From assembly GCF_054482525.1 (NCBI RefSeq), contig NZ_CM137006.1: a stretch of 64,000 nt of DNA. One strand, 5' to 3'. Both the position numbers and the translations under genes were made by a program. The notes under the pieces were generated by a model. It saw only the letters and a program-made list of their open reading frames with translations, searched no databases and had not been told where the DNA came from. Positions within the stretch are counted from its first letter, which is position 1. The number at the start of each line of letters is the position of its first letter. This document shows positions 57,029-58,531 of this stretch, one piece after another.

Positions 57029-57700
57029 TTTGCGCACTCCTGACGTTTAGCAACATATGCGGCTTGCCCTGAACACCGGGCACCACTGTATTGATGCTCA
57101 TTTTCCATAGCCATTCCCTTTTGTTCATTACATCCATGTCAGTCTGAGACAGGCCTGAATCCTGTCAGCAAAGTATAAAACCTTACTTGCCTATGAATAT
57201 CTACTGACTTTTCAGGAAAAAAGTCATGATTTGATAAAAATCATCAAACTCAAAAAAAAACTGCTAGTATATTCTGAATATTCCGAATAGTTACGCAGAT
57301 GAAAATACTTGTCACCGTCGCTACATAATCCCGGAAAGCAATTATTTATCTTCGCATAATCAGCCATGTATTATTTGAAACAATTAGTTTGTAAATAATA
57401 TAAATTGATAACATATCAAATACATCAAAAATACCATTCACAGGCATTATTAATATAGACATCAATATAGCAACATCAAATTCCAATTAGTAATAAGATA
57501 TGCTTTTAAATTGCATGCAAATAATTTTAAATGAGCGTTTTTTGATACTTTATAGTGTTTCCTACCCTTTAATATCACTGTGTAGAGTTGATATCACTAC
57601 AACAGAAACATGCATGTCATTTGTTTACTTCTCTTTTTACTACAGAAAAATTTATCTATTTTTCTAAACATCAGTGAAATACTCATAAAAGGTAACTATT

Positions 57701-58531
57701 ATGTCTATGCCATTAAGCAATGCCCTTCAGAGTCAAATTATTACAGATAATCACTTCCTTCATCATCCAAAAGTCGACAGTGAGTTAACACGTAAATATG
57801 AACGTGCACGCCTGGATACGGAAAATATCTATCTTCTGCCTCTTGCTCGTGGCAATAACCATAATTACGATGGAAAAAGCGTTGTCGAAATTAGAAAACT
57901 TGATATTAGTAAAGAGTACTGGCCATTTAATTATGTGACAGAAACATGCAGAGAATCCGATGGTATTACAACAACAGGACGTATGCTCTATCGAAATTTG
58001 CGAATCACCACAGTTTTAGACGAAATATATGGTGGTATATGTAAAAAGGCGCATGCTGCCACAGAGTTAGCAGAAGGATTACGGCTAAATTTATTTATGA
58101 AGAGCCCTTCCTATCCTGTTGAGGACTATACAGTTCATGAAATAACATTAGGCCCTGGTTGCAATGTTCCTGGTTATGCCGGAACCACGATAGGATATAT
58201 TTCAACCCTTCCAGCATCTCAGGCAAAAAGATGGACCAATGAGCAGCCAAGGATTGATATCTATATTGATCAGATAATGACGGTAACAGGGGTAGCAAAT
58301 TCTTCCGGATTCGCCCTTGCCGCATTACTTAATGCTAATATTGAAATGGGAAATGACCCAATAATTGGTATAGAAGCCTATCCCGGTACCGCGGAGATCC
58401 ATGCAAAAATGGGATATAAAGTTATCCCCGGTGATGAAGATGCAAAACTCAAACGTATGACTTTGCAACCGTCATCTCTTCCAGAGCTGTTTGAATTAAA
58501 AAATGGTGAATGGAATTATATTGGTAAATAA
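57701..58531 (+). CDS. yjiC: uncharacterised protein, AT-rich codon usage
   Basis: 276 aa; RBS AAAGG; preceded by ~650 bp very AT-rich non-coding DNA. Confidence 0.7.
   Translation: MSMPLSNALQSQIITDNHFLHHPKVDSELTRKYERARLDTENIYLLPLARGNNHNYDGKSVVEIRKLDISKEYWPFNYVTETCRESDGITTTGRMLYRNLRITTVLDEIYGGICKKAHAATELAEGLRLNLFMKSPSYPVEDYTVHEITLGPGCNVPGYAGTTIGYISTLPASQAKRWTNEQPRIDIYIDQIMTVTGVANSSGFALAALLNANIEMGNDPIIGIEAYPGTAEIHAKMGYKVIPGDEDAKLKRMTLQPSSLPELFELKNGEWNYIGK

What the first reader, a model, noticed from the sequence alone, without database searches (positions are those of the whole stretch)
57038..58531. yjiC: AT-rich uncharacterised gene behind a 650-bp AT-rich silent-looking region
The 57040-57700 interval is among the most AT-rich stretches in the window (runs of A/T, many TATA/AATA motifs), typical of H-NS-bound DNA. 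The downstream 276-aa ORF has AT-biased codons and no motif I can assign. The same region is the upstream control DNA of divergent iraD. This looks like a horizontally acquired, probably xenogeneically silenced gene of unknown function.
Basis: inference. Interest (0 to 1): 0.4.

Follow-up and report, generated by a model that had tools for sequence, protein, structure and literature searches.

The report
E. coli yjiC: orphan GNAT-fold gene
This is the known but uncharacterised E. coli gene yjiC next to the well-studied AT-rich iraD control region; its protein has no sequence relatives outside Escherichia, is predicted to have an acyltransferase (GNAT) fold, and is a conditionally induced gene rather than a dead silent one.

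Summary
The iraD-yjiC spacer (57029-57700) has 31.5% GC, and the most AT-rich 663-bp stretch of the window lies here. yjiC (57701-58531, 276 aa) has the lowest GC3 (29.6%) of the 51 annotated genes.

- **H-NS and foreign origin:** published K-12 data list this spacer as an H-NS-bound "promoter island" next to genes predicted to be foreign.
- **Not silent or empty:** the spacer carries idlP, ytiD and ytiC/ytiB, which are transcribed with iraD, and the DnaA box at -81. Under AZT it gives the strongest induction in the genome, and yjiC rises 11-fold, independent of LexA.
- **Age:** yjiC sits at the same locus in E. albertii, so any acquisition is old. No donor exists: the family (Pfam DUF2686: YjiC plus paralog YjfZ) is found only in Escherichia/Shigella.

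Most likely it is a stress-induced acyltransferase with an unknown substrate. Interest is modest.

The parts
56636..57028 (-). iraD (anti-adaptor protein IraD, 130 aa), divergent neighbour of yjiC
   Evidence: RefSeq annotation of the identical SCU-102 sequence. Its product hits Pfam GPW_gp25 in related loci. GC is 48.6%.
57025..57108 (-). idlP, the 27-aa iraD leader peptide, translationally coupled to iraD and the target of CsrA repression
   Evidence: Annotation and translation [27 protein letters not shown]. The mechanism is taken from PMC7652899.
57101..57109 (+). [quoted passage not shown]
   Evidence: The sequence was read. The box and its repressive role are described in bioRxiv 10.1101/2021.05.20.444958. 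The segment is conserved in all five Escherichia sequences aligned, with one substitution inside the box in E. albertii.
57261..57276 (+). CTGCTAGTATATTCTG, which matches the published K-12 HusR (YnfL) binding sequence CCGCTAGTATATTCTG with one mismatch
   Evidence: Sequence. The HusR gSELEX site is listed for ytiD/idlP-iraD in PMC12844172.
57224..57367 (-). ytiD-like small ORF (47 aa), upstream of iraD
   Evidence: Annotated as hypothetical in SCU-102 and as ytiD in a K-12-like genome. Translations are. ytiD is induced 33-fold by AZT in K-12.
57346..57447 (-). ytiC/ytiB small ORF (33 aa, MPVNGIFDVFDMLSIYIIYKLIVSNNTWLIMRR)
   Evidence: Translation. The tagged K-12 protein was validated in PMC6001520, where it is called ytiB. 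[quoted passage not shown]
57448..57700 (.). Divergent promoter DNA between ytiC/ytiB and yjiC; the most AT-rich core of the window
   Evidence: 57200-57700 has 27.3% GC. It is part of the published H-NS-bound promoter island. It is conserved within E. coli and diverges in E. albertii apart from short blocks and the yjiC ribosome-binding region. The consensus promoter scan found no more sites than shuffled sequence.
57701..58531 (+). yjiC, 276 aa, 30.9 kDa, with no hydrophobic segment; Pfam DUF2686; predicted GNAT-fold core at about residues 58-276 behind a low-confidence N-terminal tail
58298..58315 (+). Codons for N200-S-S-G203-F-A205, the candidate GNAT motif A (Q/R-x-x-G-x-G/A) at the beta4/alpha3 junction
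   Evidence: N200, G203 and F204 are invariant across YjiC and YjfZ. In both models alpha3 starts at residue 201. This is my reading of the motif, not a tool assignment.
58631..58659 (.). GC-rich 10-bp-stem hairpin between convergent yjiC and uxuR; a likely shared terminator
   Evidence: RNA fold of -17.5 kcal/mol, z = -4.9 against shuffles.

Best explanation
The ORF is E. coli yjiC. It encodes a soluble 31-kDa protein of the Escherichia-restricted DUF2686 family (YjiC plus paralog YjfZ).

I propose that the protein is a very divergent GNAT-fold acyltransferase. Residues about 58-276 would form the beta1-alpha1-alpha2-beta2-beta3-beta4-alpha3-beta5-alpha4-beta6 core. The conserved beta4-alpha3 segment (N200-S-S-G203-F-A) would hold the pyrophosphate of an acyl-CoA or a similar donor. 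H234 (Tyr in YjfZ), in an A-x-x-[H/Y]-x-x-x-G-[Y/F] motif, would sit where many GNATs place their catalytic Tyr. The fast-evolving N-terminal third would form the acceptor site.

The gene lies in an AT-rich, H-NS-bound island that it shares with the divergent ytiC-ytiD-idlP-iraD transcription unit. It is kept low in ordinary growth and switched on with that unit under replication stress, through a LexA-independent and partly SspA-dependent route. The enzyme would then act on an unknown amine-bearing target, which may explain the reported biofilm defect of a yjiC insertion mutant.

Shown: gene identity, composition, family restriction, synteny, purifying but relaxed selection, and the predicted fold. 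Taken from the literature: H-NS binding, AZT induction and the biofilm mutant. Inferred: catalytic activity, donor, substrate, the role of H-NS in yjiC expression, and the physiological role.
For: - Identity: 100% match to annotated yjiC; Pfam DUF2686 at E 4e-151.
- Real gene under selection: dN/dS is 0.29-0.57 against four orthologues and dN is well below dS against E. albertii (0.26 vs 0.88). It is intact in 4881 of 5426 complete genomes.
- Fold: two AlphaFold runs with different alignments and lengths give the same GNAT order of secondary-structure elements.
- Conservation: invariant residues cluster in beta2-beta3 and above all in beta4-alpha3, residues 183-212. This core has the lowest dN/dS in two of four comparisons (0.08-0.14), while the N-terminal third is fastest in most.
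- Regulation: H-NS-bound promoter island. AZT induction of 11-fold for yjiC, 14-fold for iraD, 18-fold for idlP, 33-fold for ytiD and 260-fold for ytiC, all LexA-independent and SspA-dependent 2.7-6.3-fold.
- Phenotype: a transposon mutant is biofilm-deficient.
Against: - The models are only moderately confident (mean pLDDT 62, and below 50 for residues 1-57 and 88-111), and TM-scores to GNAT structures are 0.3-0.5.
- No sequence method links the family to GNATs: Pfam on ten members, profile searches of PDB and hhalign against RimI all found nothing.
- Motif A is degenerate. N replaces Q/R, and the last position is I in YjfZ.
- dN/dS is high for an enzyme. About 10% of genomes lack the gene, and truncated or frameshifted variants are common.
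- The biofilm mutant was not complemented in the text I read, and the insertion could act through iraD/RpoS.
- De-repression of yjiC in an hns mutant was not examined here.
Confidence: 0.6

Rival explanations
1. YjiC is a decaying or non-catalytic GNAT-fold remnant. It would be a lineage-specific gene under relaxed selection, kept off by H-NS, with no enzymatic role. At most it would be a binding or regulatory protein, and its AZT induction would be a by-product of opening the shared iraD control region.
For: dN/dS is 0.3-0.57, against 0.02-0.05 for uxuR, uxuB and hypT. The N-terminal tail reaches 1.7 within E. coli. Motif A is degenerate. The gene is absent from 531 of 5426 genomes, and there are many truncated forms, such as a 257-aa Shigella form and a frameshifted YjfZ (P0061). 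Its codon adaptation is the lowest in the window.
Against: The gene has stayed intact at the same locus since before the E. coli/E. albertii split. Two paralogs still share invariant residues at the GNAT cofactor site. The core has dN/dS of 0.08-0.28 in three of four comparisons. A transposon mutant has a phenotype.
Confidence: 0.22
2. YjiC is a GNAT-type toxin or conflict factor, for example one that acetylates aminoacyl-tRNA like TacT, AtaT or KacT. Its allelic hypervariability and its presence/absence polymorphism would then reflect an arms race with phage, plasmids or rival strains.
Confidence: 0.08
3. YjiC is an acyl-ACP or acyl-CoA-dependent N-acyl amino acid or homoserine-lactone-type synthase, related to LuxI or FeeM, that makes a small acylated signal. 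This would tie in with the biofilm phenotype.
Against: The Z difference from ordinary acetyltransferases is about 1 unit on a pLDDT-62 model. No Pfam Autoind_synth or other match appears at E <= 10. I see no LuxI-type N-terminal signature in the alignment. By established knowledge E. coli makes no AHL.
Confidence: 0.05
4. One reading: a recently horizontally acquired, permanently H-NS-silenced passenger gene behind inert AT-rich DNA.
For: The extreme AT content and codon bias, H-NS ChIP occupancy and 'foreign gene' predictions in K-12.
Against: Orthologues are syntenic in E. albertii and in other divergent Escherichia contigs. There are no mobile-element scars and no donor family anywhere. The spacer carries translated small ORFs and regulatory sites. 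The whole island is strongly inducible.
Confidence: 0.05

Closest known systems
Pfam PF10887 (DUF2686) / NCBI 'YjfZ/YjiC family protein'
   Same: Full-length match of 502 bits. It is 41% identical to the paralog YjfZ of the same genome, and shares its length, its AT-richness (yjfZ GC 42.8%) and its restriction to Escherichia.
   Different: Nothing differs; it is a member. The family itself has no assigned function or fold in the libraries searched.
GNAT (GCN5-related N-acyltransferase) superfamily, e.g. EsaI (1kzf), BH2621 (2qml), KacT/TacT/AtaT toxins (7byy, 6g96, 6gtp), AAC(6')-Ib, RimI
   Different: No detectable sequence similarity. YjiC is about 100 residues longer, with a roughly 57-residue low-confidence N-terminal tail and a long alpha1-alpha2 insert. 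Motif A is degenerate. Activity is untested.
H-NS-bound 'promoter islands' of E. coli K-12 (Panyukov and Ozoline 2013)
   Same: The K-12 yjiC/iraD spacer is one of the 78 listed islands (526 bp). It is H-NS-positive and associated with genes predicted to be foreign. The window's spacer is more than 95% identical to the K-12-like one.
   Different: Promoter islands were described as transcriptionally almost inactive. This one drives the most strongly AZT-induced transcript of the genome.
iraD regulatory region (P1/P2 promoters, DnaA box -81, SspA, ppGpp, CsrA-idlP coupling, HusR)
   Same: It is the same 672-bp DNA, and all the named elements are present in the window.
   Different: The published work treats it as iraD's upstream region only. 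In the papers I read, the divergent yjiC promoter and its co-induction have been noted only in a table.

Membership tests
Pfam DUF2686 (YjfZ/YjiC family) | Score above the Pfam gathering threshold over the full-length model | tested here: met
   502.3 bits against a cutoff of 25, residues 1-276 on model positions 1-285. All 10 aligned members match.
GNAT superfamily | Core fold beta1-alpha1-alpha2-beta2-beta3-beta4-alpha3-beta5-alpha4-beta6 | tested here: met
GNAT superfamily | Motif A, Q/R-x-x-G-x-G/A, at the beta4-alpha3 junction (binds the CoA pyrophosphate) | tested here: inconclusive
   YjiC has N200-S-S-G203-F-A205 at the right place and YjfZ has N-A-L-G-F-I. N200, G203 and F204 are invariant, but the first and last positions depart from the consensus.
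GNAT superfamily | Detectable sequence or profile similarity to a curated GNAT family | tested here: not met
   No Pfam family other than DUF2686 appears at E <= 10 for any of 10 members. NCBIfam gives none. PDB profile searches give no GNAT. hhalign against RimI gives probability 0.3%.
GNAT superfamily | Acyl-CoA (or acyl-ACP) binding and acyl transfer to an amine | not testable with these tools
   This needs biochemistry.
Xenogeneically silenced (H-NS) horizontally acquired island | AT content and codon usage far from the host core | tested here: met
   Spacer 31.5% GC. yjiC GC3 of 29.6% is the lowest of 51 genes.
Xenogeneically silenced (H-NS) horizontally acquired island | H-NS occupancy in vivo and de-repression when hns is lost | not testable with these tools
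   Occupancy in K-12 is reported from ChIP data sets (PMC3661553). I found no data on de-repression of yjiC.
Xenogeneically silenced (H-NS) horizontally acquired island | Patchy distribution, an identifiable donor lineage, or mobile-element scars | tested here: inconclusive
   The gene is absent from 531 of 5426 E. coli genomes, which carry an alternative haplotype. It is syntenic in E. albertii. No relative exists outside Escherichia, and there are no flanking repeats.
Type II toxin-antitoxin GNAT toxins (TacT/AtaT/KacT) | Adjacent co-transcribed antitoxin gene (RHH/DUF1778 type) | tested here: not met
   There is no such ORF. yjiC is monocistronic between its own promoter DNA and a hairpin before convergent uxuR. 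PADLOC gives no match.
LuxI-type AHL synthases | Match to the Autoind_synth profile and conserved N-terminal acidic/Arg/Trp signature | tested here: not met
   There is no Pfam hit at E <= 10. The structural resemblance is at the general GNAT level only.

The most novel reading that the evidence does not exclude
DUF2686 (YjiC/YjfZ) would be an Escherichia-specific, rapidly diversifying branch of the GNAT superfamily and an effector arm of the LexA-independent (DnaA/SspA-controlled) replication-stress response. It would be co-induced with the RpoS stabiliser IraD from one H-NS-bound divergent control region and would acylate a cellular or foreign target. Its hypervariable alleles and its presence/absence haplotypes would reflect conflict-driven (phage or inter-strain) selection rather than decay.
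Probability: 0.12. Interest if true: 0.6.

Novelty: new member of a known kind. Interest (0 to 1): 0.3.

Why it matters
yjiC belongs to the uncharacterised part of the E. coli genome. A testable fold-level hypothesis (GNAT acyltransferase, with named candidate residues N200, G203 and H234) turns a "DUF" into an experiment.

Its co-induction with ytiC-ytiD-idlP-iraD under replication stress suggests the LexA-independent damage response may have an enzymatic member that nobody has examined.

The locus is also a clean natural example of an old, lineage-restricted, H-NS-bound gene that has been wired into a host stress circuit. It exists as three haplotype classes (common allele, 63-70% alleles, absent), which makes it useful for studying how orphan genes evolve.

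None of this is a major surprise. The gene, the family and the H-NS-bound region are all already on record.

Tried and rejected
- **Sequence routes to function all failed.** NCBIfam, PADLOC and PHROGs gave no match. Pfam at E <= 10 on ten members returned only DUF2686. phmmer and profile searches of PDB returned nothing significant. hhalign against E. coli RimI gave probability 0.3%.
- **Remote-homologue searches found only Escherichia/Shigella DUF2686 proteins and fragments.** These were three word-indexed searches of 5.8 billion proteins and one full HMMER pass over 1.84 billion representatives. One borderline exception was a 477-aa repeat protein (P0056, E 9e-5, seven matched stretches), which I judged spurious.
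- **The species-genome scan returned two loci.** One was E. albertii. The other was a 1.3-kb 'Collinsella MAG' contig that is 97.7% identical to the E. coli yjfZ locus, so it is contamination. The scan did not return E. coli itself, so its sensitivity is limited.
- **Structure work had limits.** The afdb50 fold library was unavailable. A second AlphaFold run, with the N-terminus trimmed and 23 sequences, did not raise confidence (pLDDT 62.3 again) but reproduced the topology.
- **The promoter consensus scan was uninformative.** It found no more sites than shuffled sequence, so I do not name a yjiC promoter.
- **Motif searches gave little.** The strict DnaA-box consensus has no hit in the spacer; the published box is an 8/9 match. 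The H-NS high-affinity motif gave 2 hits within 2 mismatches, which is unremarkable.
- **No known RNA or repeat structure was found.** Rfam returned only a sub-threshold snoRNA chance hit, and there are no direct or inverted repeats.
- **Rejected: spurious ORF.** dN/dS is below 1, the ORF is conserved in orthologues, and RNA-seq shows induction.
- **Rejected as significant: resemblance of YjiC residues 21-65 to ribosomal protein uS12** (E 0.3-1.2).

Full report
**What is there**

The window is E. coli chromosome, 100% identical to strain SCU-102 and about 96% identical to most other strains. Around the finding the gene order is iadA, hypT, iraD (56636-57028, minus strand), a 672-bp spacer, yjiC (57701-58531, plus strand), a hairpin, uxuR (minus strand) and uxuB.

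**Check of the observation**

- The spacer 57038-57700 has 31.5% GC, against 50.5% for the window.
- Only 1.1% of all 663-bp windows are as AT-rich. The absolute minimum of the 64 kb (29.4%) is 57170-57832, inside the finding.
- Long A/T runs are five times denser here than in the window as a whole.
- yjiC has 39.5% GC. Its GC3 of 29.6% is the lowest of the 51 annotated genes (mean 58.0%, sd 8.3%). Its codon-adaptation value against the window's own GC-normal genes (0.485) is also the lowest.

**The spacer is neither empty nor silent**

Annotation and translation place three small ORFs on the minus strand:

- idlP (57025-57108, 27 aa)
- a ytiD-like ORF (57224-57367, 47 aa)
- the 33-aa ORF validated as a protein in K-12, called ytiB in that paper and probably the 'ytiC' of later work (57346-57447)

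Published work adds the following.

- idlP is the iraD leader peptide through which CsrA represses iraD by translational coupling (PMC7652899).
- The 672-bp upstream region carries two iraD promoters. Both are repressed by DnaA-ATP, partly through a box at -81 (TTTTCCATA, which I find at 57101-57109), and both are modulated by SspA (bioRxiv 10.1101/2021.05.20.444958).
- A HusR site lies at the position I find at 57261-57276, with one mismatch (PMC12844172).
- In RNA-seq after azidothymidine (AZT), ytiC shows the highest induction in the whole genome (260-fold). ytiD rises 33-fold, idlP 18-fold, iraD 14-fold and yjiC 11-fold. All are LexA-independent and are reduced 2.7-6.3-fold without SspA (PMC11228462).

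The same K-12 spacer is also one of 78 "promoter islands". It is scored as H-NS-bound in two ChIP data sets and associated with genes predicted to be foreign (PMC3661553). In Shigella, yjiC is induced together with plasmid virulence genes and other acquired genes by RNA-polymerase inhibitors (PMC3299763).

The H-NS idea is therefore supported by data from others. The region is a conditionally very active divergent control region, not inert DNA.

**The family**

YjiC matches Pfam DUF2686 end to end (E 4e-151) and nothing else in NCBIfam, PADLOC or PHROGs.

- Searches of 5.8 billion proteins, with YjiC, with YjfZ and with a family profile, returned only Escherichia/Shigella DUF2686 proteins and fragments. 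So did a full HMMER pass over 1.84 billion cluster representatives.
- These hits fall into two clades: YjiC (57-100% identical) and the paralog YjfZ (41% identical to YjiC, next to rplI).
- The scan of species-representative genomes added only E. albertii and a contaminating E. coli contig in a Collinsella MAG.

A published marker study reached the same taxonomic conclusion (PMC11057252).

**Evolution**

The divergent YjiC proteins all sit at the same iraD-uxuR position. These are E. albertii (62% identical) and two further Escherichia contigs (70% and 63%). The gene therefore predates the E. coli/E. albertii split.

- dN/dS is 0.29-0.57, against 0.02-0.05 for uxuR, uxuB and hypT. This is purifying but relaxed selection.
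- In a genome labelled E. coli, the 63% allele lies between flanks that are 99-100% identical in protein. Its dS of 0.51 is 3-10 times that of the neighbours. This points to allele replacement or long-lived polymorphism confined to yjiC and its promoter.
- By region, the N-terminal tail and alpha1-alpha2 evolve fastest in most comparisons. The beta2-alpha4 core is the most constrained in the closer comparisons.
- Among 5426 complete E. coli genomes, 4895 carry yjiC (3541 at 95-99%, 1337 at 90-95% and 9 at 60-80% nucleotide identity) and 531 do not.
- The yjiC-less genome I examined has a different haplotype. Its iraD-idlP is only 77.5% identical, and there is no trace of ytiD, ytiC or yjiC.
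- No repeats or mobile-element scars flank the gene.

"Horizontally acquired" therefore remains possible, but only as an ancient event with no known donor.

**Fold**

An AlphaFold2 model from a 10-sequence family alignment has mean pLDDT 62, rising to 70-92 in the C-terminal half. Its element order is strand 61-67, helices 75-87 and 111-134, strands 144-151, 162-170 and 187-194, helix 201-212, strand 222-226, helix 231-236 and strand 251-255, followed by a hairpin. This is the GNAT order. A second run, with residues 48-276 and 23 sequences, gave the same order at the same confidence.

| Search | Result |
|---|---|
| Foldseek, PDB | 17 hits at E <= 1e-3, all GNAT |
| Foldseek of the second model, viral structures | NAT_SF / acyl-CoA N-acyltransferase proteins lead the list |

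The family's invariant residues concentrate in beta4-alpha3, residues 183-212. That is where GNATs bind the cofactor.

- I read N200-S-S-G203-F-A205 as a degenerate motif A.
- I read A-E-I-H234-A-K-M-G-Y (A-A-I-Y-S-G-L-G-F in YjfZ) as the motif-B-like segment that carries the catalytic Tyr in many GNATs.

Both readings are my inference from general knowledge of GNAT motifs. No sequence method supports the link, so superfamily membership rests on predicted structure alone. I found no open-access paper connecting E. coli YjiC with GNAT.

**Most likely mechanism**

YjiC is probably a soluble acyltransferase-like enzyme (no hydrophobic segment, pI 5.8). H-NS-bound AT-rich DNA would keep its expression low. 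It would be turned on together with the divergent iraD unit when replication is blocked. Its acceptor site, the fast-evolving N-terminal third, has been changing quickly. The substrate is unknown.

The one phenotype on record is a biofilm-deficient transposon mutant in an atypical EPEC strain (PMC4100040). It might equally be a cis effect on iraD and RpoS.

I put about 0.8 on the GNAT fold, about 0.5 on real catalytic activity and 0.6 on the overall account. The rivals, with evidence and refutation tests in their own section, are:

- a decaying or non-catalytic remnant (0.22)
- a toxin or conflict factor (0.08)
- a LuxI/FeeM-like synthase (0.05)
- the literal "recent, permanently silent passenger" reading (0.05)

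**Verdict**

The gene, its family and the H-NS-bound, DnaA/SspA-controlled spacer are already in databases and papers. This analysis adds a fold-level hypothesis (a divergent GNAT), the strict Escherichia restriction measured on very large libraries, and the three-haplotype, fast-evolving nature of the locus. Interest is modest (0.3).

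Noticed in passing
window 57972-57993 (+) and 58064-58085 (-): The qPCR primers published as an E. coli-specific 'YjfZ' marker (PMC11057252) match yjiC in this window. The forward primer matches exactly and the reverse primer has one mismatch, giving a 114-bp amplicon, the size that paper reports. yjfZ is only 41% identical in protein, so the assay appears to target yjiC. About 10% of complete E. coli genomes lack yjiC.
   Followed up: partly
L003 4562-5778 (E. coli BH100) compared with window 56600-58700: About 10% of complete E. coli genomes carry an alternative haplotype. Their iraD-idlP is only 77.5% identical, they have no ytiD, ytiC or yjiC, and a PEP-binding-protein pseudogene lies between hypT and iraD. 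The E. albertii locus (L009) has no hypT gene called between iadA and iraD, and none is called in L013 either. The hypT-uxuR interval is therefore a hotspot of gene-content variation.
   Followed up: partly
L013 5001-5831 compared with window 57701-58531: In a genome labelled E. coli, the YjiC allele is only 63% identical in protein (dS 0.51). The adjacent uxuR is 100% identical in protein (dS 0.05), and most of the spacer looks well over 90% identical in the alignment. The divergence starts about 200 bp upstream of yjiC. This looks like gene-confined allele replacement or balancing selection.
   Followed up: partly
window 57761-57895 (YjiC residues 21-65): There is a weak, statistically non-significant resemblance to the conserved PKKPNSALRK...GHNLQEHSV region of ribosomal protein uS12 (E 0.3-1.2 in the PDB profile searches). 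The region is low-confidence in the models and only partly conserved in YjfZ. It is probably chance.
   Followed up: no
window 42069-44600: This is the second most AT-rich island of the window. It holds a 799-aa pentapeptide-repeat protein gene (42192-44591, GC 36.7%, GC3 31%), with its upstream DNA at about 30% GC. It sits next to an SdiA-regulated-domain gene and the inverse autotransporter gene iatD. It is another likely H-NS-type island.
   Followed up: no
window 3775-4437: This is the third AT-rich minimum (32% GC), upstream of yjjQ-bglJ. Those two genes are themselves low in GC (45%).
   Followed up: no
L008 1773-4990 (SCU-102 yjfZ locus): The paralog yjfZ (GC 42.8%) lies between rplI and a TetR-family pseudogene (ytfA) that is split by an IS200/IS605 tnpA remnant and a TnpB gene. 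The second family member therefore also sits at a disrupted, variable spot.
   Followed up: no
L016 (contig from a MAG labelled Collinsella sp.): This 1283-bp contig is 97.7% identical over its full length to the E. coli yjfZ locus. It is E. coli contamination in the MAG bin, not a Collinsella DUF2686 gene.
   Followed up: yes
window 58631-58659: A 10-bp GC-rich hairpin (-17.5 kcal/mol, z = -4.9) lies between convergent yjiC and uxuR. It is a likely bidirectional terminator. A published study reports promoter-like activity and short RNAs at the 3' end of uxuR just beyond it (PMC10016265).
   Followed up: partly
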